Program-made: the position numbers and the translations under genes | Shown here: positions 1 through 61,187 of the stretch, piece after piece | How positions within the stretch are numbered: the stretch's first letter is position 1 | Layout of the letters: the number at the start of each line of letters is the position of its first letter | The notes under the pieces: generated by a model | Databases searched by the model: none | Told to the model about the DNA's origin: nothing | Seen by the model: the letters and a program-made list of their open reading frames with translations, nothing else | Virus record (IMG/VR): IMGVR_UViG_3300042453_002958 | Coordinates: 1-64,000 of that record | Source of the DNA: a virus | Direction: 5' to 3' (one strand) | Length of the DNA stretch: 64,000 bases

Positions 1-126
1 AAGTGACCGGCGTCGCTGGGACCACGATCATCTGGCACGCATACGTCGAGGCGTCGCAAATCTCAAACGACTACACGGCAAACTCTTTGTAATGCCTGCC
101 AAAAACAGGGAGGCGGCGACGCTCTG
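1..126 (+). repeat. Exact direct repeat, copy 1 (3' end of fibre gene plus 34 bp downstream)
   Basis: Identical to 36667-36792; first mismatch at 127 (a) vs 36793 (g). Confidence 0.97.
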
Positions 127-34847: not shown

Positions 34848-36758
34848 ATGAGCGACACGATCACGGTCGACGGCGGCGAAACGATCATCGTGGCGCCGGA
34901 CGCGTGCGCGACCGCTGACTGCGAAGTGCTCGTCAGCATCGTCACGGGCCAGGACGGTGCCGTCGGGCCAGCCGGACCGCAGGGGCCGGCGGGTGCAGCT
35001 GGACAAACCGGACCCGCCGGGGCCGCCGGGCCGCAGGGACCGGCAGGGCCAGCCGGGGCAACGGGGGCAACGGGGCCAGCAGGGGCGACCGGGGCCGCAG
35101 GGCCGACCGGACCGCAGGGGCCGGCGGGGGCGGCCGGTGCCGCCGGCCCGCAAGGGCCAGCCGGGCCAGCCGGCACGACGACCTGGGCCGGGATCACGGA
35201 CAAGCCGGCCACGTTCGCGCCGTCCGATCATGCCCACGGCGCCATCACGCCCGACGGAAGGATCGGCGACAACACGACATCAGGGCGATTCGTCGTCACG
35301 ACCGACCTGGGAGACCTGGCCACGGCCGGCGCCTCGACGGGCAGGTCGCTGCTCGGCCTCGGCGGCGCGGCGACGCTGAACGTCGGCACCGCGGCCGGCA
35401 CGGTGGCGGCGGGCAACGACGCGCGGCTCTCCGACGCGCGGACGCCGACGGCCCACACCCACGCCAACCTCGGCACGGAGGATGCAAAGCAAGACTTCTA
35501 CATCAACCTCGCCAACGGCCTGCCAAACATCGAAAACGGCGTGCCGACTGAGGTAAACCATCGCGCCGTGGCGTGGATTCAGAATAGAAGCCACTTCGGC
35601 GCGGGTCGGTTCAATCATTACGGCGAGTTCCCGGCACACGCCGGGCAATATAGCGCGACTTTCGGATGGGCCTGTCACGTCATCGACAACACAACTTCAT
35701 CGGACGGCAATCAAGCGAAGGGCAGTTTCGCCGCCGGTTACGGCAACACTGTCGGCGCGTCGATGTCGTCGGCGCTCGGCCAATACAACCTCGTCCGAAA
35801 CGTAGGGCACGCGATTGGCGCATACAACCAGGTCGGCGGATCGGGCGACCAGATTGTGGCGCACAACTGGACAAGCCCGACCGCAAGCCACTCTGTCGAG
35901 ATCAGCGGAAACAGGTCATCGACGTATCCCGTAGGCACTGTGGTTGCGGTCCTTTTGGCGAGCGCCTCGAATGTGGACTCTTGGCAGCCAAACAAGGTTT
36001 CGGCGGTCTCCTACAACGCCGGAACGAACAGGACCGTGATTACGCTTGTCGCGCCGGCCGAGTTTCAAGCGGCCACGACTGATTTTTTGGAGCAGGCGAG
36101 CGGGATCGGACAATCCAACGTCCTTACTCGCTCTCTGATCTGCACGCTAAACGGCGGCGGCGAGGGGATCGCGATCGGATGGCGAAACATCATCCCGACA
36201 TCCCGCGGGTTCGCAATCGGTACCGATCACAACCTGGTGGGCCAACACGGATTCGCGCTCGGTCGCCAGGTCGTGACGAAGAACGCCTACCAGGGCGGCT
36301 TTGGAACCGGCTACCTGATGAACGGCTCGACGCGGCATATCGCGCAGATGAATATGTGGTGCCTGAAGCGGCGCACCACCGACGCCACGCCGGCGGTGAT
36401 GACGATCGACGGACTGTCCACGGTGGCCTCGACCAACTCCATCATTTTAGAGGAGCGGTCGGTATATCGGATGCGATTTGAAATCGCCGGACGTGGGACT
36501 GGGGACATAGCCTACGGCGAAACAATCACGGCAACCGTCAAGCGAGACGGGTCTTCAAACCTGACGATTGTCGGGCAGGCGAGCTCTAACAAGCACACCG
36601 ACAGCGGCCTTTCGACTGCATCTGCCACCCTAAAAGCAAACGGGACGCTCGACTCCGTAGAGCTGGAAGTGACCGGCGTCGCTGGGACCACGATCATCTG
36701 GCACGCATACGTCGAGGCGTCGCAAATCTCAAACGACTACACGGCAAACTCTTTGTAA
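34848..36758 (+). CDS. Collagen-like fibre protein with YadA-like head repeats
   Basis: Gly-X-Y run (34964-35175), [25 protein letters not shown] fibre repeats, S.A.G..N repeats. Confidence 0.8.
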
Positions 36759-36792
36759 TGCCTGCCAAAAACAGGGAGGCGGCGACGCTCTG
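36667..36792 (+). repeat. Exact direct repeat, copy 2; phage A/phage B junction
   Basis: Identical to 1-126. Confidence 0.97.
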
Positions 36793-52740: not shown

Positions 52741-53001
52741 ATGACCAAGCGTGCCATCGTTCTCTCGTGTCTCGCGTGTCTCGTGGCCGGTTATTTGGCC
52801 GCTTCGGTCCCGGGCTTCGACCCGGTGAACCCGTTCAACCCCCGGCCCCAGCGGCCGTTTCTCCAGCTCATTTCGCGGCTGGCGAAGCTCGGGTTGTGGG
52901 TCACGGTTTTCGCCGAGCCAGCCCCGCGGCCGGTCGAGCAGCAATACGCCGCCGCACACTGTGACGACAGGACCATGATCTGCCACGCGGAGGGATGGTG
53001 A
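52741..53001 (+). CDS. Small secreted/membrane protein
   Basis: Signal-like N-terminus. Confidence 0.5.
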   Translation: MTKRAIVLSCLACLVAGYLAASVPGFDPVNPFNPRPQRPFLQLISRLAKLGLWVTVFAEPAPRPVEQQYAAAHCDDRTMICHAEGW

Positions 53002-53252
53002 TGCTTCAACTTGTCGTTTGGGTCGTTTTCGGATGGATCGCGGGCTCCGTCGCGGAGTGGTTGTGGCCACCTGCGAAGCCGCACGCCAAGTGGCAGACGA
53101 TCGCCATTGGCGTGATCGGATCGGTGGCCGGTGGTTTGGCCGGTTCGCTCGTGAGCGGCGACCACTACCGGCCGGCCGGGATCGTGCTGTCGGTGCTGGG
53201 GGCGGTGGCGTGCATGTTCGTCTGGCGCAAACTCGATGAGGTGAAGCCGTGA
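52995..53252 (+). CDS. GlsB/YeaQ/YmgE (transglycosylase-associated) membrane protein
   Basis: W.VFG.IAG..A..L.P...TI..GVIGS..GG...S.LGA pattern. Confidence 0.8.
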   Translation: MVMLQLVVWVVFGWIAGSVAEWLWPPAKPHAKWQTIAIGVIGSVAGGLAGSLVSGDHYRPAGIVLSVLGAVACMFVWRKLDEVKP

Positions 53253-53581
53253 GCATGGTGTGGCGGTGGGTTATTTCGATGCTCGTGTGGCTGTCGGCCG
53301 ACCACGAGCGGATCGCCACCGAGCCGGCCCGGGCGGCTGCGGCCGTGGCGGTGGCCCGCGCGTCGATCATCGAGCAGATGGAGGCCCGGCCCCTGCCCCC
53401 GGCCCCGCCGGGGCCGACGGCGTGCAAGTGCTCGGCCACCTGCGTGCGTGGGTCGTGGCGGCCCGATGGCCGCATCGAGGCCCGGTGCGATTGCACCTGC
53501 CCGCGGTGCGTGGCGGAGCGGGCGAAGCCCGGCACGGTTCGATCGGGGACGTGCCAGAGCGGTACGTGCCCGCCCCGGTGA
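53249..53581 (+). CDS. Cys-rich small protein
   Basis: CKC..TC..G...PDG...CDCTCP; C-terminal CQSGTCP like the CPDGRC end of 2793-3632. Confidence 0.55.
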   Translation: MSMVWRWVISMLVWLSADHERIATEPARAAAAVAVARASIIEQMEARPLPPAPPGPTACKCSATCVRGSWRPDGRIEARCDCTCPRCVAERAKPGTVRSGTCQSGTCPPR

Positions 53582-53591
53582 GGGCGACCAG

Positions 53592-54005
53592 GTGAACGAC
53601 GCGATCGTCCAGCTGCAGGCACACGTACGCTACCGGCTGGGCACGCGGGTGACCTACGCCCATGCGTGGCGGGTCGATGCCCTGAGCCGGCTGGTGCTCC
53701 GGCATTGGCCGCACGCCCACCTGGAGGATGCCGTGGTGGCCGGTGGCCGCCACTCGATCGCGGTCACCCATGCCATGACCTTGATGCGGTCGCAGGTCCG
53801 CGAGCAGTGGGAGGCCCGGCACGGGTCGGGGCCGCTATGGGATCTCGTGCTGGGTGGCACGGTCACGGCCACCGGCATGATCCTGCTCGATCTCTGGTGG
53901 CCGAGCCCGGGGTGGCGGTCAATCCTGGTGGCGATGTCGCGGTCACTGGCTGACGATCGCCAGCACGGCGTCGATGGCGTCGTGGATCGCCCGGGCCAGT
54001 TGTGA
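53592..54005 (+). CDS. Membrane protein, homolog of 3629-3967
   Basis: VREQWEARHG...LLDLWW vs VRDRYEQQCG...VIRWW. Confidence 0.5.
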   Translation: MNDAIVQLQAHVRYRLGTRVTYAHAWRVDALSRLVLRHWPHAHLEDAVVAGGRHSIAVTHAMTLMRSQVREQWEARHGSGPLWDLVLGGTVTATGMILLDLWWPSPGWRSILVAMSRSLADDRQHGVDGVVDRPGQL

Positions 54006-54076
54006 GTCTGTGCCAAGCTCTTGGCCGATCCGCACGAGCACGAGCGAGCGGACGATGGCGGACCATGTGGTGCGGG

Positions 54077-54475
54077 TCATGGCTGCCCGCCATTCTTCCG
54101 CTCGTTGTCGATCAGCTCCTGCAGGCTGTCGAGGAAAGAATCATCGCACCCGTCGATGGCAGTCTTGGCCATCCTCAGCAACTGTTCTTCGAGGATTTCG
54201 TTGTTTGCAAGTTCAAAGACGAGGTCTTCAGTTAGATCTGGCAGTGTCCATTTTGCTTCACGCTTCAGGTCGTCAATGCAACGGGCGATGGCATCCACCA
54301 CGCTCCTTGTGTCGTCTCGGAGCTGCCCATTCCGCTTCTCGTCGTTGGCGAACCATTCGGGCGCAGGATTCACCTGACGGGCAACTGATCTTTTCGTTGA
54401 GAAACAGTCGCGGTGCGACTGCTCGTCGGAGTCGGCCGGGTTCCATTCAATGCGGATAGAGAAAAACGGCTTCAT
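54077..54475 (-). CDS. Acidic hypothetical protein
   Basis: AGGAGG RBS; visibly lower GC. Confidence 0.6.
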   Translation of the reverse strand: MKPFFSIRIEWNPADSDEQSHRDCFSTKRSVARQVNPAPEWFANDEKRNGQLRDDTRSVVDAIARCIDDLKREAKWTLPDLTEDLVFELANNEILEEQLLRMAKTAIDGCDDSFLDSLQELIDNERKNGGQP

Positions 54476-54963
54476 GAAAAAACCTCCTGTGCCAAGAGTT
54501 GAGCCGGAAACGATGCCACGTCAACGTCCGCCGGGCTGGTTGTCCATTCGTAGGTGACGCCGTCCGGGTGCCGGGACGGCGGCAGCACGGACTGGGCGGC
54601 CCGCCCACCGAGCCGTATTTCGATGCTGTCAAACTTCACGACCGCCGACTCCGGCATCCAGGGTTCCCAGCGAAAAAGCCGGTGCTCCCCGCGGGCCGAC
54701 CGCCAGGTCGGGGTGGGCAGGTCGAGCACGCCGAACGCGGCCAGCTGCTCCCGGCCGGCGGGGTCGTCGTATTCGACGTCCACGACCCCGGACCCGGGGC
54801 CGAGCAGGAGCCCCACGTTGTCGCCGGCGGCGAGCCACCGGGCCACGTCGTCCGGGCTGGTTGTGCCACGGTGCTGCCAGCCGGTGCCGAGCGGGCGTTT
54901 CGCCCGGCGGGCGACGCGGACGAAACGGCAACCGGCGGCGGCGAGGGCGGAGATGGGGGTCAT
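54472..54963 (-). CDS. Stand-alone bifunctional primase-polymerase (Prim-Pol) domain
   Basis: KRP...WQ, NVGLLLG, VVDVEYD, RGEHRLF, VLPPSRHPDG..YEW. Confidence 0.85.
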   Translation of the reverse strand: MTPISALAAAGCRFVRVARRAKRPLGTGWQHRGTTSPDDVARWLAAGDNVGLLLGPGSGVVDVEYDDPAGREQLAAFGVLDLPTPTWRSARGEHRLFRWEPWMPESAVVKFDSIEIRLGGRAAQSVLPPSRHPDGVTYEWTTSPADVDVASFPAQLLAQEVFS

Positions 54964-55193
54964 GCGGCACCCCCTTCGGCCCGAACGAAGTACGGGGCCA
55001 TGCCATCGGCCATGATCTCGTCGCACGTCTCCCAAGCGTCCTTGAGTGTGGCGAAGCGCTTCACGCGGTCGGACTCCGGGGCGATCGGGGTGATCCGGCC
55101 GCCACATTTCAGCAGGCAGCAGATTTGCGACGTGATGATCGCGAGCACGTAGTAACCGGCGGTCGAGGTCTCGGTGTAGATCGGGGCGGTCAT
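54960..55193 (-). CDS. Cassette orphan protein B-7
   Basis: ACAACCAGGAG-GACCATGACC leader after promoter B4. Confidence 0.65.
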   Translation of the reverse strand: MTAPIYTETSTAGYYVLAIITSQICCLLKCGGRITPIAPESDRVKRFATLKDAWETCDEIMADGMAPYFVRAEGGAA

Positions 55194-55242
55194 GGTCTCG
55201 GTCTCCTGGTTGTGGCCGCGGGTTTCGTCCCGCGTCGGTCTA

Positions 55243-55271
55243 GTTATATTCGATCGGCAAATAGGTGTCAA
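55243..55271 (-). promoter_or_regulatory. Cassette promoter B4
   Basis: TTGACA-cctatttgccgatcgaa-TATAAC; upstream AAAAACTTTTCT. Confidence 0.9.
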
Positions 55272-55301
55272 GTGGTGAGAAAAGTTTTTTTGGTTGTGGG
55301 G

Positions 55302-55535
55302 TCAGGCCCGGCCGTCGGCCTTGTGGATCCGGGGCCGCCCGCGGCCGACCGGGTCGCGAGTCCATTTCTCGCAAGCGGTGCGGAGGGCGAAGAAATAGCC
55401 GTCGATCTCGATACCGGCGATGCCCCCGGCCCCCGGCCCCTTCTTGACGAGCTCGCGGAGATAGTAGCGCGAGACTCCGGCGAGCCGGGCTCCGGTCTGA
55501 ATCGATACGTACGCTTTGGGGTCGATCTTTGCCAT
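55302..55535 (-). CDS. Small HTH regulator (homolog of 26670-26861)
   Basis: MAKIDPKAYVSIQTGARLAGVSRYYLRELV; C-terminal GRGRPR. Confidence 0.75.
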   Translation of the reverse strand: MAKIDPKAYVSIQTGARLAGVSRYYLRELVKKGPGAGGIAGIEIDGYFFALRTACEKWTRDPVGRGRPRIHKADGRA

Positions 55536-55541
55536 GGGTGC

Positions 55542-55569
55542 ATTATTGCCGGGCGGCTGCGGCGGTCAA
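55542..55569 (-). promoter_or_regulatory. Operator-less promoter for the HTH gene, predicted leaderless mRNA
   Basis: TTGACC-16-AATAAT with 6 nt between the -10 and the ATG; no RBS. Confidence 0.5.
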
Positions 55570-55609
55570 GCCGGGTTGTCTGCTGGTTGTGCATGGGTTG
55601 TCCGTGCGG

Positions 55610-55849
55610 TCAGTCCGCGAACATGGGGACGCAACGGGCGACCGGCTGCCGGGCCGGGCCGACCGGAGCACCGGCGGCGTCCAGGTCGAGCAGGAAGCGG
55701 TCCGCGGCCCGGCGGGCATCGGTGCCGGGCTGGGCGTGGCGGTCCGCCTCGCGGGCATCGGCGAGCGCGAGGGCGTCAACCGCCCGGCGGATGCTGTCGG
55801 GCATCGCGGAGTAACGGGAGGCGAGTCGGGCGAAGGTGGCAGCGGTCAT
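55610..55849 (-). CDS. Cassette orphan protein B-6
   Basis: ACAACCAGGAG leader. Confidence 0.6.
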   Translation of the reverse strand: MTAATFARLASRYSAMPDSIRRAVDALALADAREADRHAQPGTDARRAADRFLLDLDAAGAPVGPARQPVARCVPMFAD

Positions 55850-55891
55850 GGCGTCGGGCTCCTGGTTGTGGGTTGGTTGTGGTGGGGTCGG

Positions 55892-56170
55892 TCAGTTGGG
55901 CAGCCTGCAGTTGCGAGCGTGGCGGTCAATCGTCTCGCACCAGGTGCGGACGGCCGCCCGGGTGTCCGCCATCGTGGCCGGGCTCGTGCGGACGTCGAGC
56001 GTCCAGGTGTAGCCGTCGAAAGCGAAACAATCTGCGAGCCATCGGCGGCCGGAAAAGTCGCGGCGGATGTGCACGCGGCCGGTTAGCTGGCCGGCCGGGT
56101 TGTGCACGGCATATCCCGCCGTGGTCGCCGTGGCGGTCGTGCCGTGCGCGAACGTGATGAACGTGGCCAT
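55892..56170 (-). CDS. Cassette orphan protein B-5
   Basis: ACAACCAGGAG leader. Confidence 0.6.
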   Translation of the reverse strand: MATFITFAHGTTATATTAGYAVHNPAGQLTGRVHIRRDFSGRRWLADCFAFDGYTWTLDVRTSPATMADTRAAVRTWCETIDRHARNCRLPN

Positions 56171-56274
56171 GGTTGTGCTCCTGGTTGTGGCGGTTGGTTG
56201 TCGGGTGGCGATGTGCCAGCCGGCCCGGTTCCCGCCGTCCTCCGTGGGGCGGCGGTGGCCGGGGCGGCCGGGCG

Positions 56275-56883
56275 TCACGGGTAGCCGCGGACCTCGTCGA
56301 GCACGGCCCCGGCTGCGGCTGTCTGCCGGCGGATCCGGGCGATGATGCCCGCGGACGTCTTGAGCTGCGGCACCTTGACGAACGGGTGAACGGGCTGCCG
56401 GTCGGCGAGTCGCAGCCCGGCGGACGGGCGACGGTAGACGTGGTAAGGCTCCCAGCGCTGGCCGGTGTGGGCGGCCCGCCACGACTGCGCCGCGGCGTCG
56501 ATGGCGTACTCGATCGCGGACAGTTCCGCGACCGCGGCGGCGACCGCGTCTTGCCGGGCAGCTTCACGAGCGGCCCGGGCACGATCGGCGGCGGCGGCTT
56601 CCAGCCGATCGGCGTCGGCACGGATCGCGTCCACGGTGGCCGGTGTGATGCTGGCATAGGTGAACACGCACACGCTCCCGACGATCGCGGTGCGGCCGTC
56701 GTCGAGGTTGTGGAGCGTGAACAGGTAGCGCAGCCCGTGGTGGCCGCACGAGCAGCGGCCCACGGCCCGGGGTAGTTCGCAGCAGTCGCCCCGATACTCC
56801 CAGCGGGAGCCGTCGCCAAGGGCAGCGGCGAGCCGTTCGGCGTAGTGGCAGCGGTTACGGGCTTGGGTGGCGGTCGTGGTCAT
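56275..56883 (-). CDS. Cassette protein B-4 with putative Zn finger
   Basis: CSCGH...VGSVC; follows promoter B3. Confidence 0.65.
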   Translation of the reverse strand: MTTTATQARNRCHYAERLAAALGDGSRWEYRGDCCELPRAVGRCSCGHHGLRYLFTLHNLDDGRTAIVGSVCVFTYASITPATVDAIRADADRLEAAAADRARAAREAARQDAVAAAVAELSAIEYAIDAAAQSWRAAHTGQRWEPYHVYRRPSAGLRLADRQPVHPFVKVPQLKTSAGIIARIRRQTAAAGAVLDEVRGYP

Positions 56884-56930
56884 GGTCTCGGGTCTCCGGT
56901 GGTTGTGGCCGTCGTGGCCGTGGTGGTGGT

Positions 56931-56959
56931 GTTATATCCAATCGGCAAATAGGATGCAA
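56931..56959 (-). promoter_or_regulatory. Cassette promoter B3
   Basis: TTGCAT-cctatttgccgattgga-TATAAC; upstream AAAAACTTTTCT. Confidence 0.85.
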
Positions 56960-56977
56960 GGGGTCAAGAAAAGTTTT

Positions 56978-57292
56978 TCAGTCCAGGTGCTCCGCGAGCT
57001 CCCACGCGGCCCGGGCCGCGGCGGCGGCGATGTCGTCCACGCTCGGCCGCTGGCGCTTCCCGCCGCGGCGGCGGCGGTTCAACTCGTCGGCACAGTAGTT
57101 GATTTCGTCGGCGTAGTAGCCGTGGTTCGGCTGGTCCGGCCATGCTTCGAGCGTGGCGCGGCAATCGGCGATCACGTAGAGCAGTTCGGCGTCCGATCGG
57201 CTGCGGCACAGTTTGGGGTAGGCCGCGTGGTCGATGTGCTTGGTGGCGGCGGGGTGGTCCATCCAGCCGGTCGCGTTGGTTGTGGTGCTCAT
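56978..57292 (-). CDS. Cassette orphan protein B-3
   Basis: CAACGGAG-GACCATG leader; GYYADEINYCADELNRR. Confidence 0.65.
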   Translation of the reverse strand: MSTTTNATGWMDHPAATKHIDHAAYPKLCRSRSDAELLYVIADCRATLEAWPDQPNHGYYADEINYCADELNRRRRGGKRQRPSVDDIAAAAARAAWELAEHLD

Positions 57293-57398
57293 GGTCTCGT
57301 CTCTCCGTTGGGGTTGGTTGTGGGTTGTCGGGCGACGCGCCCGGCATCCCCCTGGCCGGCCGCGGCGGATGCCGGGGCCGGCGTGGGGGCGGCCGTGC

Positions 57399-58406
57399 TC
57401 AGCGCTTCGGCTTGCCGCCGTAGGCGGCGGTCGAAAACACTTCGGCCGACTCCGGCAGGTAGGCGGAGCTGCTGACGGTCCAGCCGCCGTATCGGCTGTC
57501 TCCGAGATAGTTGCCGCCGCCCATGCTGTAGTTTTCGCGGTGCTCGATGGACTCCTCGCGGATGTGCCACTCCAGCGGCACGACCGGCCCGTGTGCCGTG
57601 TGCAGGGGCTGCAGCGGGTTCGCGGCCGCGTGGGCTTCGGCAGCGGCCCGCGTCGGCAGCGGCCCGGCGACCAGGTCGCGGTGCCAGCCGGACACGGTGC
57701 CAGCGTAGACCCGTTCGCCGCGGTCGTCGGTGTAGTCGGTGCTCGTGACCGGCTTGACGTACCAGCGGCCAAGGCCCGGCCCGTAGTCGGCCGTGGGCTT
57801 GAACGCGGCCGCGGCTTTCCGCAGCTGGGCGAACGACTCGCGCTTCCCGCGGCCGAAGCCGATCACGACCTCGCGGGCGGTGCGGTGGCCGAAGTAGTCG
57901 CTCTGGCTGTCCGACTCATCGACCCGAAACTTTGCAAAGATCACGCGGTCGGCGCCCGCGTCGCTCATCGCCGTGGCGAGCGCGTCGCGGCTCATCGTCC
58001 GCAGCTGCGGCACGTCGTCGTACGCCACCGCGTCCGCCTCCGCACGGGCCATGCGGCGCTCCTCGGCGTCGCGGTGGCGGCTGGCCATTTCTTCAAGGCC
58101 GCGGACCGTCTCGGCGACGTCGTCCGCGAGATACTGCCGGCCGTCGTTCGTGGCGCAGTTGTAGACCAGCGGCGGCCAGCCGTGATCGTCGGCACGCTCC
58201 GCGATGATTTCGAGCGCGGCGGACGCGATTTCGGTTTTCGTTATCGGCTCCACCGTGTCGCCGTACTGGTCCGCAAGCGCGGCCGCGTTCGCGGCGGCCA
58301 CGACGGCGAGCAGGTCGGCCACGTCGGCCAACTGGCCAAGGCCAAGCCGCACGGCGGCGGCGGCGAAGGATGCGAGATTCGACACTTCAAGGTTCGCGAC
58401 GCTCAT
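57399..58406 (-). CDS. Cassette protein B-2, polyvalent-protein-like domain
   Basis: DESDSQSDYF...VIGF...LRKAA...EHRENYSMGGGNYLG...GW, as recalled from large polyvalent proteins of conjugative elements. Confidence 0.6.
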   Translation of the reverse strand: MSVANLEVSNLASFAAAAVRLGLGQLADVADLLAVVAAANAAALADQYGDTVEPITKTEIASAALEIIAERADDHGWPPLVYNCATNDGRQYLADDVAETVRGLEEMASRHRDAEERRMARAEADAVAYDDVPQLRTMSRDALATAMSDAGADRVIFAKFRVDESDSQSDYFGHRTAREVVIGFGRGKRESFAQLRKAAAAFKPTADYGPGLGRWYVKPVTSTDYTDDRGERVYAGTVSGWHRDLVAGPLPTRAAAEAHAAANPLQPLHTAHGPVVPLEWHIREESIEHRENYSMGGGNYLGDSRYGGWTVSSSAYLPESAEVFSTAAYGGKPKR

Positions 58407-58468
58407 TTGAGATTCTCCGTTCTTGGTGTTGTGGGCCGGTTTTCCCGCCGGCCCGATCGGGTTGTGCA

Positions 58469-58497
58469 GTTATAGCCGATCGGCAAATAGAAGTCAA
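58469..58497 (-). promoter_or_regulatory. Cassette promoter B2
   Basis: TTGACT-tctatttgccgatcggc-TATAAC. Confidence 0.9.
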
Positions 58498-59078
58498 AAG
58501 GGGGCAGGTGCAAGGGCCGCACGAGTACGGGGCCGGCCGGCCGTCGGATGCCGGGCAAACCACTGGCAATCGGCGAGCGAGACCCGCCAGTTTCGGCCGA
58601 TCTTGTGGCCGCGGACCTTGCCGGCCTTCACGAGTTGCCGCAGCCATTGTTCGGTAACGTCCGCGATCGCGGCCCCTTCGACCAGGCCGACGAACGTCTC
58701 CGCGGCCCCGTTGTCCGCGGCCAGCTCCGCGAGCCGGGCGATCGTCTCGCCCATGACATCGTCGGCCGGTCGCATTGTGGGGGCCGACTCCGCGAGCTCC
58801 GCGAAAAGGTCGTCCGCGGTCATGCCACGATCGGCGGCGGTAACGTCAAGGCCGCGGATGTAGGTTGCATCCCCACCGGCAAGCGCGGCCCGGTTCCGGA
58901 TCCGCCAGTGTCCGCCGTGCTCGTCTCCACAACTGGCGGAGAAGGCCCCGCGGCGAAACTCGCCGATCCGCTCCAGCTCTGCGGCTTCGATCGCCCTGGT
59001 CTCGCGGTATGCGGCCAGCACGTCCGCCCAATCGAGTCCGGCGGCGGCGGCGGCTTGCTTGTGGGCTTGCGTGTTCAT
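58494..59078 (-). CDS. Cassette protein B-1 with C-terminal HTH_17-like domain
   Basis: EGAAIADVTEQWLRQLVKAGKVRGHKIGRNWRV, AGRPR; GGGAG RBS. Confidence 0.75.
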   Translation of the reverse strand: MNTQAHKQAAAAAGLDWADVLAAYRETRAIEAAELERIGEFRRGAFSASCGDEHGGHWRIRNRAALAGGDATYIRGLDVTAADRGMTADDLFAELAESAPTMRPADDVMGETIARLAELAADNGAAETFVGLVEGAAIADVTEQWLRQLVKAGKVRGHKIGRNWRVSLADCQWFARHPTAGRPRTRAALAPAPF

Positions 59079-59103
59079 GGTCTCTTGCTCCCGTGTTGTG
59101 ATG

Positions 59104-59131
59104 ATAATAGCCGATCGGCAAATAGAGTCAA
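59104..59131 (-). promoter_or_regulatory. Cassette promoter B1
   Basis: TTGACT-ctatttgccgatcggc-TATTAT. Confidence 0.85.
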
Positions 59132-59280
59132 GCCCCATCACAAAAAAAACAAGAAGCCCGGAAACCGCGGGCGATCGTGCGGAGCATATTGCCGATCGGA
59201 CACTTGGCAAACGCGAAACCGGACCCCGGCCGGTCGTGCTCGTGACGGTCCGCGGGCGGGCGGAGACCTGGTGCAGGTCG

Positions 59281-59370
59281 TCTCGTCGTCTCGTCGTCTC
59301 GTCGGTCGGTCGGTCGGTCGGTCGGTCGGTCGGTCGGTCGGTCGGTCGGTCGGTCGTCGTCGTCGTCGTC
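59281..59370. repeat. Compound microsatellite (TCTCGTCG)3, (GTCG)14, (TCG)4-5
   Basis: Read directly. Confidence 0.95.
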
Positions 59371-59380
59371 ACCAGCTCGC

Positions 59381-59514
59381 CGGGCCGGCCATCGAAATAC
59401 CAGCCGAGGCCGGCGGGCCGGCGATCGAAATACCCCACGCGAGGGGTGCCCCACCGAAATACCACCTAGGGGGGGTGTGTTGCGTTTTGCAACACCCCCA
59501 CCTAGGTGGGGGGG
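59381..59514. repeat. Three CGAAATACC direct repeats followed by nested palindrome
   Basis: 59393, 59426, 59455; CCACCTAGG...GTGTTGC-GTTTT-GCAACAC...CCTAGGTGG. Confidence 0.9.
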
Positions 59515-59661
59515 TAACAGGGACGTTGCGCCCCCCACGGCGGGGGGGTCCTTCGCCCCGCGGCACGCGGGGTGCCCCGGCTGCGAACTACACCCAATCG
59601 ATGACTGCCGCCCGAAAGGCCCCCAAGAGCCGCAGGACGCCCGCCGCTGATCGCGGCGTGC

Positions 59662-60648
59662 TCACGCCGCAGGATCCTCTTTCCCCCGGAACTGGAGCAC
59701 GTCCGGGGGTCCGCTCGACGCCCCCGGCGGCGTCGATGGGGGTGTCGGCTGATCGTCTAGGTCGAGCGGCGGCAGCCAACCCAAGCCACCGTAGTCCGTA
59801 GGGCATATGTCGGGATCGACATATCTCTGCTGGAGATTCGGATCCGTGTGATCGAGCAGCCGCGTGGCCGCCGAGCTGCCGCCAGCGAGGGCGGCAAAAC
59901 TCGCGGCCGTCCGTCTCAGCCCGTGGAAGCCCCTGTACCGCACCCCGGCCGACTCGCACAAGACTTTCAGCGAGGCCCACTGCGACCTGGTCCGCCGATC
60001 CCACGGCCACACCAGGTCGTCGGGGCCGCGGCGGTGCTCGGCGAGCATCGCGGCCAGCTGCGGCGTGATCGACCGCTCGATGTCGCGAGTCGAGCCCTTT
60101 CTGGTCGCCCCGAGCAGCACGATCCGGCACCGCTCCAGGTCCACCTGTCCCCAGCGGAGCGCGGTGAGTGCCGAGAATCGTTCGCCGGAGCACACCGCGG
60201 CGTAGATGAGAGTCGGCCACCACCATCGGGCCGGAAGCCCGCCGACCTTGCCGATCCGCTTCTTGCCGTACCGGATGAGCTTCTCCACGTCTTCGGCCGT
60301 GTAGGCCCGGCCGACAGGCAGCCGCGTCGGCACCTTGATCTTGGGCAGCTCCGGAAACTCCGCGGCCCACCGCTTGCGGGCGGCGTAGGTCCAGACCGCG
60401 GCGATCATGACGCGATCCTTTCGCACGCTCGCGGGACTGGGCCGCCGCCCGGCCCACGCGATCGTCTCGGCCCGCCACCGCAGGTAGCGGGCGACGACCA
60501 GGTCGTCGAAGTCGTCGGTCGTCGCCGGCCGACCCAGGAACCGCTCGAACCGATCCCACAGCATCCGGTACAGCCCGGCCGTGTGGGGCTTCAACTCCCG
60601 CAGCAGAGCGTACCGCTCCGCGACCTCCCGAACCGTCATGGCACCCAT
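59662..60648 (-). CDS. int: Tyrosine integrase
   Basis: SGER, RKG, FHGLRR, LDHT, RYVD; homolog of 16192-17094. Confidence 0.9.
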   Translation of the reverse strand: MGAMTVREVAERYALLRELKPHTAGLYRMLWDRFERFLGRPATTDDFDDLVVARYLRWRAETIAWAGRRPSPASVRKDRVMIAAVWTYAARKRWAAEFPELPKIKVPTRLPVGRAYTAEDVEKLIRYGKKRIGKVGGLPARWWWPTLIYAAVCSGERFSALTALRWGQVDLERCRIVLLGATRKGSTRDIERSITPQLAAMLAEHRRGPDDLVWPWDRRTRSQWASLKVLCESAGVRYRGFHGLRRTAASFAALAGGSSAATRLLDHTDPNLQQRYVDPDICPTDYGGLGWLPPLDLDDQPTPPSTPPGASSGPPDVLQFRGKEDPAA

Positions 60649-60756: not shown

Positions 60757-60891
60757 CTCGACATCTGCCCGGCACCCCGACTCTCTCACCGCGACGACCC
60801 GCAAGCAAGCAACGGGTTCGAGCGGGTGCAGTCGGGGGGCCGGGACAGGTTGGACAGTTGATTCGGCTGACGCCAGCGTTAGTATGGAGAC

Positions 60892-61116
60892 ATGATCGTG
60901 GCGCTACCTCCCAACCGCAAGCTGATCGGCACCCGCGACGCCGCCAAGATCCTTGGCATAAGCATGGGGCGGCTTCGCCAGCTCGCCCTCGACGGGACGG
61001 TGTGGAGTGACCACGCCGCAGCAAACGCTCGCGTGTTCGACGAGACAGAGATCCGCAAGCGGGCCAAGGTGCCCAGGACTACTGGGCGCAAGCCCGGCGG
61101 ATTTCGGGCCGGCTGA
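60892..61116 (+). CDS. HTH protein (excisionase/Cro-like)
   Basis: LIGTRDAAKILGISMGRLRQLA. Confidence 0.75.
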   Translation: MIVALPPNRKLIGTRDAAKILGISMGRLRQLALDGTVWSDHAAANARVFDETEIRKRAKVPRTTGRKPGGFRAG

Positions 61117-61131
61117 TTTCAGCGGCTTTTT
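61108..61131 (+). terminator. Putative intrinsic terminator
   Basis: GCCGGCTGA-TT-TCAGCGGC followed by T5. Confidence 0.5.
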
Positions 61132-61159
61132 CATGGGGACTCCTTTTCGGAGAACCCTC

Positions 61160-61187
61160 TTGACACGTTCTGACGCTCGCGTATATT
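61160..61187 (+). promoter_or_regulatory. Putative early rightward promoter
   Basis: TTGACA-16-TATATT. Confidence 0.55.

What the first reader, a model, noticed from the sequence alone, without database searches (positions are those of the whole stretch)
54077..59200. Phage B: array of orphan-gene cassettes under repeated promoter-operator elements with an embedded HTH regulator
Seen: four near-consensus sigma70 promoters (55243-55271, 56931-56959, 58469-58497, 59104-59131) share the spacer CTATTTGCCGATCGG, with a fifth, inverted operator copy at about 59188-59200. Two promoters share an AAAAACTTTTCT upstream element. The array drives about ten small unrelated genes: Zn-finger, polyvalent-like, Prim-Pol and acidic proteins. 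It also contains two HTH_17-like domains (55302-55535 and the C-terminus of 58494-59078). Known analogies are the IncN CUP/ArdK regulon, T4-type PeSL cassettes and Acr/Aca operons. Inference: an immediate-early, self-silencing anti-defence or host-takeover regulon whose repeats also allow cassette shuffling. I do not recall it being described for this phage group.
Basis: partly seen in the sequence, partly recalled or inferred. Interest (0 to 1): 0.82.

Follow-up and report, generated by a model that had tools for sequence, protein, structure and literature searches.

The report
Repressor-controlled early-gene array, planctomycete phage
A 41.8-kb temperate phage, probably of lake Pirellulales (Planctomycetota), drives ten leftward genes from four look-alike promoters that each carry the same palindromic site, most likely for a small phage DNA-binding protein, and relatives swap unknown genes in and out between these units.

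Summary
Four promoter units (55243-55271, 56931-56959, 58469-58497, 59104-59131, minus strand) share the spacer CTATTTGCCGAT.G. No other copy lies in the 77-kb contig, and none is expected by chance. A fifth, inverted copy (59188-59199) abuts what I identify as the attP core. About 90 related uncultured phage contigs have the same layout: int, attP, promoter, g10, promoter, variable genes, g8, variable genes, g4, promoter, variable genes, PrimPol.

The shared spacer is a 14-bp dyad, usually centred 12 nt after the -35 hexamer. Its sequence differs between phage groups but is mostly shared by the promoters within one phage. It tracks the recognition helix of g4, a 77-aa Xis/BldC-type winged helix. 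It does not track g10, whose helix is nearly invariant.

Best reading: g4 represses the whole array, including its own gene, and may also act at attP. Cassette junctions sit exactly at gene boundaries, and a lake-metagenome contig lacks the P2+g7 cassette.

Anti-defence function, early timing and repression itself are untested. The cassette proteins match nothing known.

The scan had already found the sister system in phage A of this contig. This is a new variant of known kinds (Aca-like autorepression, Apl/Cox-like dual use, PeSL/moron-like shuffling).

The parts
59662..60648 (-). Tyrosine integrase (328 aa)
   Evidence: Pfam Phage_integrase 3.4e-6, 27.4 bits against a cut-off of 27.1. Conserved next to the array in relatives.
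59197..59227 (-). Probable attP core (GGGGTCCGGTTTCGCGTTTGCCAAGTGTCCG on the minus strand)
   Evidence: Conserved in all relatives. A 27-nt degenerate pattern matches once in 596 Gb, in a Pirellulales MAG chromosome contig about 760 nt from RNase P RNA. Alignment. That genome lacks g10.
59188..59199 (+). Fifth operator copy, inverted; dyad centre at 59195/59196; overlaps the attP core by 3 nt
   Evidence: The equivalent site varies between relatives, and in several it resembles that phage's own operator: a full TTGGCGATCGCCAA in L006/L007/L013, TCGGATAC in L011.
59141..59172 (-). Intrinsic terminator-like hairpin GCCCGcggtttcCGGGC followed by a T-run, between attP and P4
   Evidence: Hairpin and T-run are present in relatives.
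59104..59131 (-). P4: TTGACT, 16-nt spacer, TATTAT; 10-bp perfect palindrome GCCGATCGGC at 59112-59121
58494..59078 (-). g10 (194 aa): helical N-domain plus C-terminal Xis/BldC-type winged helix; first gene of the array; HTH nearly invariant across relatives
   Evidence: Pfam HTH_17 2.5e-6. PHROG excisionase 1.1e-6. Alignment. AF2 pLDDT 85. The C-terminal domain gives weak, sub-threshold matches to BldC, RdfS, Pukovnik Xis and P2 Cox.
58469..58497 (-). P3: TTGACT, 17-nt spacer, TATAAC; the -35 overlaps the g10 stop codon; palindrome at 58477-58486
58433..58454 (-). 5'-leader hairpin GGGCCGGcgggaaaaCCGGCCC
   Evidence: A hairpin lies at the same place after g10 in all relatives. Stems differ and the loop start is conserved.
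57399..58406 (-). g9 (335 aa), variable cassette, unknown fold
   Evidence: Present in only 3 of 20 relatives. 106 homologues, none named, one from Schlesneria sp.. AF2 pLDDT 95. No PDB match: Foldseek E >= 0.18, best VIA Z 5.6.
56978..57292 (-). g8 (104 aa), conserved backbone gene, unknown function
   Evidence: Present in 15 of 20 loci. No family hit.
56931..56977 (-). P2 (TTGCAT, 17-nt spacer, TATAAC) with the upstream tract GAAAAACTTTTCT
56275..56883 (-). g7 (202 aa, Cys/His-rich). Together with P2 it forms a 703-bp promoter-plus-gene cassette (56278-56980).
   Evidence: Absent from L001/L003, with junctions at the g8 and g7 stop codons. A lake-metagenome contig joins 56277 to 56981.
55892..56170 (-). 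g6 (92 aa), variable
55610..55849 (-). g5 (79 aa), frequent
55302..55535 (-). g4 (77 aa, pI 10.2): small Xis/HTH_17-type winged helix with a GRPR tail; proposed operator-binding repressor
   Evidence: Paralogue of the g10 C-terminal domain. Found just upstream of the last promoter in every locus that holds it. Its helix co-varies with the operator. At least 234 protein clusters, their longest contigs at most about 45 kb.
55243..55291 (-). P1 (TTGACA, 17-nt spacer, TATAAC) with the upstream tract AAAAAAACTTTTCT
   Evidence: The unit is conserved after g4 in relatives.
55218..55233 (-). 5'-leader hairpin GCGGGacgaaaCCCGC, followed by the CACAACC..GGAG leader
54960..55193 (-). g3 (77 aa), variable
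54472..54963 (-). g2: stand-alone PrimPol (AEP) domain, 163 aa, conserved
   Evidence: Pfam 1.7e-23. PHROG DNA primase 3.2e-23.
54077..54475 (-). g1 (132 aa, pI 4.6), variable, last clear gene of the array

Best explanation
**Setting (shown).** This is the leftward early block of a temperate 41.8-kb phage. Its host is probably a lake Pirellulales bacterium.

**Unit anatomy (shown).** Expression comes from four modular units. Each unit has:
- an A/T tract (absent at P3, whose upstream side is g10 coding sequence),
- a -35 hexamer,
- a 14-bp dyad of the type T(T/A)(G/T)CCGA|T.GG..A, centred 12 nt after the -35 and reaching into the first bases of the -10,
- a -10 hexamer,
- a 5' hairpin (not at P4),
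- a CACAACC..GGAG leader.

**Regulator (inferred).** The dyad is the operator of g4, a 77-aa Xis/BldC-type winged-helix protein encoded inside the array. On entry, host RNA polymerase fires all four promoters. g4 is made from P2 (from P3 or P4 in relatives that lack P2). It then binds the spacers, blocks the polymerase and stops read-through. The whole array, g4 included, settles at a low level.

**Fifth site (inferred).** The fifth operator touches the attP core. There g4 may also help or direct Int, or strengthen repression of P4 by looping.

**g10 (inferred).** g10 is always the first gene and its DNA-reading helix is invariant. It probably has a different, conserved target, possibly an excision-factor role.

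**Cassette exchange (exchange shown, mechanism inferred).** The conserved units and leaders act as homology patches. Single genes or promoter-plus-gene cassettes are exchanged through them between related phages.
For: **The repeat is real and unique.** 4 matches against 0 expected. No further copy in the 77-kb contig.

**The same architecture recurs.**
- 20 IMG/VR loci found with g10 and 77 found with g4.
- A 42.8-kb contig binned with a Pirellulales MAG.

**Geometry.** The dyad centre lies 12 nt after the -35 in 73 of 97 distinct units. The consensus of those units is symmetric.

**Operators differ between phage groups but are mostly shared within a phage.** The P2-g7 cassette carries the WIN-type operator in WIN and L002, and L013's own type in L013.

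**g4 helix tracks the operator.**
- Helices of the ..SR.W[ML].. type go with TTGCCGA.
- VTRAY..RLI goes with GTATCCGA..GGATAC.
- ISRLHLREC goes with (A/G)(G/A)CCGAACG. There the P3 next to g10 has the same core although g10 is unchanged.

**g10 is a poor specificity candidate.** Its helix is almost invariant in 21 phages. A-type phages have operators and g4 but no g10.

**Fold.** g4 and the g10 C-terminal domain are homologous. The g10 domain weakly resembles BldC, RdfS, Pukovnik Xis and P2 Cox.

**attP.** The core has a single match in host DNA.

**Cassette junctions sit at stop and start codons.** A natural contig lacks exactly the P2+g7 cassette.
Against: - No binding, transcript or infection data. 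No RNA run holds the phage.
- g4 and the promoter after it are about 30 bp apart, so part of the co-variation could be linkage and shared descent.
- Some phages mix operator types. L009-L012 have TATCC-type sites at P4/P3 with an SR.W-type g4. The L008/L014 group has CCCATGGG-type sites at P4/P3. This hints at a second regulator.
- Known Xis-, Apl- and BldC-type proteins bind direct repeats rather than palindromes. g4 has no evident dimerisation part.
- g4 itself is below Pfam's threshold.
- Three -10 hexamers end in C.
- The dyad statistics come from units picked with a pattern that already demanded the motif.
Confidence: 0.6

Rival explanations
1. g10, not g4, is the operator-binding repressor, or the two act together. 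On this view g10 is a CI-like protein with an oligomerising N-domain, expressed from the auto-regulated P4 next to int and attP.
For: - g10 is the first gene behind the first operator-bearing promoter in every relative.
- It has a clear HTH_17 domain and a 125-aa helical domain that could oligomerise.
- The central CCGA|T.GG of the operator is as invariant as the g10 helix.
Against: - The g10 helix stays the same while the operator flanks change.
- A-type phages keep promoter operators without g10.
- L019 and L020 have g10, but no operator-bearing promoter was found around it.
Confidence: 0.15
2. The dyad is the site of a MerR-style activator rather than a repressor. A winged-helix protein would bind between -35 and -10 and remodel the spacer to switch the promoters on.
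For: - HTH_17, Xis and BldC belong to the MerR-like fold class, and MerR operators lie in the spacer (established knowledge).
- In some relatives the unit after g10 has a 19-nt spacer and a poor -10, for example TTGATT-19-TACCAC.
Against: - In this phage the spacers are 16-17 nt with good hexamers, so no remodelling is needed.
- g4 lacks the long coiled-coil and effector domain of MerR proteins (77 aa).
Confidence: 0.1
3. No phage regulator is involved. The shared spacer would reflect recent duplication or gene conversion of one strong promoter, or a host factor site.
For: - The units recombine.
- Leaders and upstream tracts are also repeated.
Against: - Within the phage the spacer is better conserved than the -35 hexamer, and the flanks differ.
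- The motif is a dyad and keeps its position in about 90 diverged phages, while its outer bases change in step with g4.
- A host site would not diversify in this way.
Confidence: 0.08
4. The operators serve prophage immunity. The array would be the lytic early-left operon (excision factor, PrimPol), held silent in the lysogen by g4 or another phage repressor, with in-line sites also acting as roadblocks like mycobacteriophage stoperators. This overlaps with the best explanation and differs mainly in when the switch matters.
For: - The phage is temperate: integrase, and an attP core with a host match.
- The array starts at attP and contains an Xis-like first gene and a replication gene.
- Operators lie in line with transcription at each operon junction, with no terminators between them.
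Against: - Both HTH genes lie behind the promoters they would silence. That gives damping rather than a bistable switch.
- The strong rightward promoter at 61160-61187 has no such operator.
- A third small HTH (60892-61116) is a better-placed candidate for lysis-lysogeny control.
Confidence: 0.2

Closest known systems
acr-aca operons (Aca autorepressors; PMC9410906, PMC8633003, PMC13551039)
   Same: - A strong promoter carries an inverted repeat within it.
- A small DNA-binding protein encoded at the end of the same operon is the presumed binder.
- The small genes upstream of that regulator are variable.
- The logic is a burst followed by damping.
   Different: - No known Acr is present.
- The binder is an Xis/HTH_17-type winged helix. 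The 2026 Aca survey does not mention HTH_17, excisionase or MerR.
- One regulator would serve four promoters in series plus a site at attP.
- The array includes a replication gene.
Apl of coliphage 186 and Cox of P2: both excision factor and early-promoter regulator (PMC7498355)
   Same: - A small Xis-fold protein encoded in the early operon.
- Sites both at early promoters and next to the att core.
- P2 Cox appears among the weak fold matches of the g10 domain (4lhf).
   Different: - Apl and Cox sites are direct repeats one helical turn apart. Here the site is a 14-bp dyad inside the spacer.
- There are four promoters rather than one switch region.
- The excision role is not tested.
PeSL cassettes of T4-type phages (PMC2839356, PMC4122927)
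   Same: - Repeated sigma-70-type early promoters are paired with a stem-loop and lie between variable ORFan genes.
- Exchange happens at these repeats.
   Different: - PeSL stem-loops are terminators and carry no repressor site.
- Here the hairpin follows the promoter as a 5' leader, and every unit carries an operator.
- Many junctions lie in the leader at gene boundaries rather than in the promoter itself.
- This phage is temperate.
Morons of lambdoid phages (own knowledge: Juhala et al. 2000)
   Same: The P2+g7 segment is a self-contained promoter-plus-gene insert between two backbone genes. It is present or absent among close relatives.
   Different: It has no terminator of its own. Its promoter carries the resident phage's operator, so the insert is wired into the phage circuit.
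IncN CUP repeats / ArdK regulon of pKM101 (own knowledge)
   Same: Repeated strong promoter elements in front of leading-region genes are controlled by an element-encoded repressor.
   Different: That system is on a plasmid and drives known anti-restriction genes. The repressor family is different. I did not check it against sequence here.
Mycobacteriophage D29 Gp36 and Streptomyces BldC (PMC12266134; PDB 6ama)
   Same: These are tiny MerR/Xis-like proteins that act as transcription regulators rather than only as excisionases. BldC is the top, weak fold match of the g10 domain (Foldseek E 0.15, probability 0.98).
   Different: Both bind direct repeats as head-to-tail multimers. Neither is known to sit in promoter spacers of a repeated array.

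Membership tests
HTH_17 / excisionase-type winged helix (Pfam PF12728) | Sequence match to the family profile above the curated cut-off | tested here: met
   g10: 28.1 bits against a cut-off of 27, E 2.5e-6. g4 itself is below threshold, but 5 of 8 family members hit HTH_17 at up to 2.7e-4, and the g4 profile matches the g10 domain at 98% probability.
HTH_17 / excisionase-type winged helix (Pfam PF12728) | Xis/MerR-like fold of the domain | tested here: inconclusive
   g10 residues 127-179 against Pukovnik Xis: VIA Z 5.6, rmsd 2.8, 52 aligned. Against BldC: Foldseek E 0.15, probability 0.98, TM 0.64-0.68. RdfS, lambda Xis and P2 Cox are also listed. All E-values are above 0.001. g4 was not folded.
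Aca-type autorepressor operon | Inverted repeat inside the operon's promoter | tested here: met
   10-bp perfect palindromes in P3 and P4 and partial ones in P1 and P2. 14-16-bp perfect palindromes in relatives.
Aca-type autorepressor operon | Regulator gene in the same operon, downstream of the cargo genes | tested here: met
   g4 is the last gene behind P2, and the last gene before the final promoter in every locus that holds it.
Aca-type autorepressor operon | A known anti-CRISPR gene in the operon | tested here: not met
   No family hit for any cargo protein in Pfam, PHROGs, NCBIfam or PADLOC.
Aca-type autorepressor operon | The protein binds the repeat and represses | not testable with these tools
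   Only co-variation of helix and operator is available.
Dual RDF/regulator (Apl, Cox) | Binding sites both at early promoters and beside the att core | tested here: met
   Operator copies lie in P1-P4 and at 59188-59199, overlapping the core by 3 nt. These are sites inferred from sequence, not shown binding.
Dual RDF/regulator (Apl, Cox) | Sites are direct repeats about one helical turn apart | tested here: not met
   The sites are single dyads.
Dual RDF/regulator (Apl, Cox) | Stimulates excision | not testable with these tools
   An excision assay is needed.
PeSL (promoter-early stem-loop) | Strong sigma-70-like promoter joined to a stem-loop that terminates transcription | tested here: not met
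   Hairpins follow the promoter and have no T-run. Only the hairpin before P4 looks like a terminator.
PeSL (promoter-early stem-loop) | Insertions, deletions and replacements between relatives are bounded by the repeats | tested here: met
   Homology with L001, L021 and L022 breaks at the P3 leader, the g8 stop/P2, the g7 stop and the P1 leader/g3 start. The 56277|56981 joint is seen in a lake contig.
MerR-type activated promoter | Over-long 19-20-nt spacer holding the dyad | tested here: not met
   Spacers are 16-17 nt in this phage. Spacers of 19 nt occur only in some relatives.
Prim-Pol (PF09250) | Profile match above the cut-off | tested here: met
   g2: 84.3 bits against 22.8, covering profile positions 3-156 of 158.
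Tyrosine integrase (PF00589) | Profile match above the cut-off | tested here: met
   27.4 bits against 27.1, which is marginal. An HGLRR motif and a C-terminal Tyr are visible in the translation.

The most novel reading that the evidence does not exclude
One family of about 75-aa Xis-fold proteins has evolved into the specificity element of a portable expression system in planctomycete phages. Each phage lineage would carry its own operator 'dialect', written into every promoter unit and beside the attP core. The same protein would then both throttle an integron-like array of exchangeable early genes and set the direction of integration or excision. Incoming cassettes would have to adopt the resident operator to be tolerated.
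Probability: 0.25. Interest if true: 0.75.

Novelty: new variant of a known kind. Interest (0 to 1): 0.6.

Why it matters
Little is known about how phages of Planctomycetota control their genes. Here sequence alone gives a testable circuit: defined promoters, a defined operator with natural variants, a candidate binder with matching natural variants, an attP/attB pair and a likely host order.

If g4 proves to be the binder, the roughly 90 related contigs provide a ready-made set of orthogonal repressor-operator pairs and strong promoters for a phylum with few genetic tools.

The exchangeable slots mark about a dozen ORFan families as candidates for early host-interaction functions. One of them (g9) has a confidently predicted fold with no match among solved structures.

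Tried and rejected
- **Public phage records:** blastn of the region found nothing.
- **Rfam on 53.5-61.5 kb:** only a chance miRNA-like hit in the microsatellite.
- **tRNA at the att site:** none in L097 or L099. The attB is therefore not a tRNA gene.
- **g9:** no Pfam, PHROG, PDB-sequence or fold match despite pLDDT 95. The ESM Atlas gave no usable hit. 'Polyvalent-like' is dropped.
- **g8:** Atlas hits below 0.9 only.
- **PADLOC:** none of the ten proteins matches.
- **g10 N-domain:** only generic helical matches, Z no higher than 6.3.
- **RNA evidence:** no RNA holder is listed.
- **Prophages in Pirellulales genomes:** of 401 sampled, one besides G002 matched only the g10 N-terminal domain (G155, residues 1-117, E 1e-14) and several matched only the HTH domain. 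A motif scan of the ten fetched loci found no operator promoter, but it also missed the known array in L097. No integrated copy with attL and attR was identified.
- **CsrA idea:** I considered that the CACAACC..GGAG leader is a CsrA site. It does not fit the ANGGA consensus well, so I left it.
- **Weak promoter-like match 59210-59183:** it is not conserved in relatives, so I treat it as an operator only.
- **Short-sided joints** (for example 55214|56871): these are ambiguous because they lie in repeated leaders.

Full report
**Setting.** The window is the first 64 kb of a 77,375-bp virus record. The record is a path through two circular phage genomes of 36,666 and 41,827 bp. These share about 1.2 kb and are joined through 126/127-nt graph overlaps: 1-126 equals 36667-36792, and 35422-35548 equals 77249-77375. 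This agrees with earlier notes of the scan. The finding lies in 'phage B'. In that phage most genes run rightward, and only the block from about 53.9 to 60.6 kb runs leftward.

**Observation.** On the minus strand there are four units:
- P1, 55243-55271: TTGACA-cctatttgccgatcgaa-TATAAC
- P2, 56931-56959: TTGCAT-cctatttgccgattgga-TATAAC
- P3, 58469-58497: TTGACT-tctatttgccgatcggc-TATAAC
- P4, 59104-59131: TTGACT-ctatttgccgatcggc-TATTAT

The joint pattern has 4 matches against 0.00 in shuffles. No other copy lies in the 77 kb. The spacer is better conserved than the -35 hexamer, while the flanks differ. P3 and P4 contain the perfect palindrome GCCGATCGGC. ATTGCCGATCGG lies inverted at 59188-59199. 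P1 and P2 share an AAAAACTTTTCT tract at about -40 to -55. Three -10 hexamers end in C, so a strict sigma-70 scan lists only P4 of the four units.

**Genes.** In order of transcription:
- integrase, 59662-60648 (Pfam, marginal)
- a non-coding stretch with repeats
- a terminator-like hairpin, 59156-59172
- P4, then g10 (194 aa; C-terminal HTH_17 2.5e-6; PHROG excisionase)
- P3, then g9 (335 aa) and g8 (104 aa)
- P2, then g7 (202 aa), g6, g5 and g4 (77 aa)
- P1, then g3, g2 (PrimPol, 1.7e-23) and g1 (pI 4.6)

g4 is a paralogue of the g10 C-terminal domain (BLASTP 3e-7; hhalign 98%, E 2.7e-14). Both end in a GRPR motif. The other seven proteins have no match in Pfam, PHROGs, NCBIfam or PADLOC.

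**Relatives.** g10 retrieved 20 IMG/VR loci. A g4 alignment retrieved 77. The g4 family has at least 234 clusters, all metagenomic, with longest contigs up to about 45 kb.

The layout is constant: int, attP region, promoter, g10, promoter, [variable], g8, [variable, sometimes another promoter], g5, g4, promoter, [variable small genes], PrimPol. Among the 20 loci, g9 occurs in 3, g7 in 2, g6 in 1-3, g3 in 3 and g1 in 2. Other families fill the same slots.

**The spacer motif is a dyad operator.** In 73 of 97 distinct units the best dyad centre lies 12 nt after the -35 hexamer. The consensus of those units is symmetric, T(T/A)(G/T)CCGA|T.GG(A/C)(T/A)A. Its outer right bases are the first two bases of the -10. 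These numbers come from units that were selected with a motif-containing pattern, so they describe the site rather than prove it.

Relatives show full palindromes: TTGGCGATCGCCAA, CTATCCGATCGGATAG and GTATCCGATCGGATAC. Operator 'dialects' differ between phage groups and are mostly shared by the promoters of one phage. The same P2-g7 cassette carries TATTTGCCGATTGG in this phage and L002, but GTATTGTCGATCGAC in L013, which matches L013's other promoters.

**Which protein reads it.** The g10 helix (..ADVTEQWLRQLVKAGKVRG..) is almost invariant in 21 phages, down to 43% overall identity. The g4 helix varies, and it tracks the operator in the promoter that follows g4:
- Some twenty helix variants of the ..SR.W[ML].. 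type go with TTGCCGA.
- About ten distinct VTRAY..RLI or KTRAY..RLI variants with a detected promoter go with GTATCCGA..GGATAC.
- ISRLHLREC goes with (A/G)(G/A)CCGAACG.
- VARITLREA goes with TTTTGCCGATCGGTA.
- This phage's own VSRYYLREL, which has a 4-aa insertion, goes with ATTTGCCGA.

In the ISRLHLREC phages the unit beside g10 has the same CCGAACGA core although g10 is unchanged. The A-type phages, including phage A of this contig, have promoter operators and a g4 homologue but no g10. L019 and L020 have g10, but no operator-bearing promoter was found around it. I therefore assign the operator to g4.

The limits of this assignment are as follows:
- g4 and the following promoter are adjacent and inherited together.
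- L009-L012 mix TATCC-type sites with an SR.W-type g4.
- The L008/L014 group has CCCATGGG-type sites at the two promoters around g10. A second regulator is possible.

**Fold.** The g10 model (pLDDT 85) has a helical N-domain without a convincing match (best Z 6.3). Its C-terminal winged helix gives weak matches to BldC (Foldseek E 0.15, probability 0.98), RdfS, Pukovnik Xis (Z 5.6, rmsd 2.8, 52 residues), lambda Xis and P2 Cox. The g4 profile gives a weak sequence hit to Pukovnik Xis (E 0.49).

**attP, host and the fifth copy.** Upstream of P4 all relatives share GGTCCGGTTTCGC.TTTGCCAA.TGTCC. A 27-nt degenerate pattern for it matches once in 596 Gb of prokaryote genomes. I estimate that about 0.002 matches would be expected by chance. 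The match lies in a Pirellulales MAG contig that also carries RNase P RNA about 760 nt away. No tRNA is present there. The shared stretch is 28-31 nt, and that genome has no g10. This looks like an empty attB.

Three further points agree with a planctomycete, probably Pirellulales, host:
- A 42.8-kb contig with the same array is binned in another Pirellulales MAG.
- One g9 homologue is from Schlesneria sp..
- All DNA runs that hold half or more of the stretch's sampled words are lake water.

The core is window 59197-59227, and the fifth operator copy overlaps it by 3 nt. The site at this position varies between relatives. In several it resembles that phage's own operator: a full TTGGCGATCGCCAA in L006/L007/L013, and TCGGATAC in L011. 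A site for an Xis-fold protein beside the core is what one expects of a recombination directionality factor. Apl of phage 186 is a documented case of one protein serving both att and the early promoters (PMC7498355). P2 Cox is a second such case (own knowledge). Unlike their sites, this one is a dyad rather than direct repeats.

**Unit anatomy beyond the promoter.** Except before g10, the units are followed by a hairpin whose stem differs between phages and whose loop is similar (ACGA, GATTGA and similar). After it comes a CACAACC..GGAG leader. The hairpin after g10 shows two stem positions with compensatory changes in 12 sequences. CACAACC occurs 16 times on the minus strand between 52.9 and 58.5 kb, and only 5 times elsewhere in the contig.

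**Cassette exchange.** Against the close relatives L001, L021 and L022 (89-96% identity in shared blocks), homology breaks at four places:
- at 58414, just before the g9 ribosome-binding site
- at the stop codons of g9 and g8
- at 56277, the g7 stop codon
- at 55188, the g3 start codon

P2+g7 is a 703-bp promoter-plus-gene insert, 56278-56980. A contig of a lake-water run joins 56277 to 56981 with three other letters between. Unitigs of those runs end at the same junctions (table 8). One refinement applies: the repeated leaders at gene boundaries serve as junctions as much as the promoters do.

**What remains open.**
- The function of every cargo protein. g9 has a confident model (pLDDT 95) with no PDB fold match (Foldseek E >= 0.18; VIA Z no higher than 5.6, on the helical N-part only).
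- The timing of expression and the sign of regulation.
- The role of g10.
- Lysis-lysogeny control. A third small HTH (60892-61116, +) with its own promoter and terminator, together with the strong operator-less promoter at 61160-61187 that heads the rightward genes (Sak4-like protein, resolvase, terminase), are more likely to hold that switch.

**Comparison with known systems.** The circuit works like an acr-aca operon (PMC9410906, PMC8633003), but it has no known Acr, a different regulator fold and four promoters in series. It resembles Apl/Cox in its sites at both promoters and att, PeSLs (PMC2839356) and morons in how genes are exchanged, and D29 Gp36 and BldC as tiny MerR/Xis-like regulators (PMC12266134). 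None of these combines all the features. Each feature is known on its own.

The scan had already reported the sister system in phage A (e1-6083146). This report adds the co-variation across both types, the contrast between g10 and g4, the attP link, the probable host and the population-level cassette polymorphism.

**Verdict.** This is a new variant of known kinds, with interest 0.6.

Noticed in passing
window 59197-59227; L099:1026-1057: Probable attP core with a single 28-31-nt match in a Pirellulales MAG chromosome, in an intergenic stretch about 760 nt downstream of RNase P RNA. It is not a tRNA gene. This gives a host and an attB for this group of uncultured phages.
   Followed up: partly
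window 59228-59600: Between the core and int lie a (GTCG)n-type microsatellite, three CGAAATACC repeats (possible Int arm sites) and CTAG-rich palindromes. Relatives have other microsatellite units at the same place, for example (TCGATGG)n in L006, L013 and L014.
   Followed up: no
window 58433-58454 and 55218-55233 (minus); equivalent sites in L001-L096: Most promoter units are followed by a 5'-leader hairpin. The stems differ between phages and the loops are similar (ACGA, GATTGA, CGGGAAAA). The hairpin after g10 is kept even in L019 and L020, where I found no operator promoter.
   Followed up: partly
window 52898-58466, minus strand: The leader word CACAACC (usually CACAACC..GGAG before the start codon) occurs 16 times on this strand here and 5 times in the rest of the 77-kb contig. 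It is a translation leader private to the array, of unknown meaning.
   Followed up: partly
window 60851-61187: A third small HTH gene (60892-61116, +, 74 aa) has its own promoter-like site and a terminator-like hairpin. A near-consensus promoter without the operator follows (61160-61187, TTGACA-16-TATATT), and then a 235-nt leader before the rightward genes. This is a likely lysis-lysogeny control point.
   Followed up: partly
window 57116-57205 (+): ARAGORN calls a 90-nt tRNA-Arg(TCG) antisense to the conserved protein gene g8. It is probably a false call.
   Followed up: no
window 1-126 / 36667-36792 and 35422-35548 / contig 77249-77375: The record is two circular phage genomes (36,666 and 41,827 bp) written as one contig through 126/127-nt overlaps. 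It is an assembly-graph path, not a biological fusion.
   Followed up: yes
L008:256-290, L014:359-395 and the units after their g10: In one subgroup the two promoters flanking g10 carry a different palindrome (TCCCATGGGA / GTCCCATGGGAC), while the promoter after g4 keeps TTGCCGAT.GGATA. This suggests a second operator specificity in the same array.
   Followed up: no
window 54077-54475: g1 (acidic, pI 4.6) lies in a stretch whose G+C looks visibly lower than its surroundings (read by eye, not computed). It is present in only 2 of 20 relatives, so it looks recently acquired.
   Followed up: no
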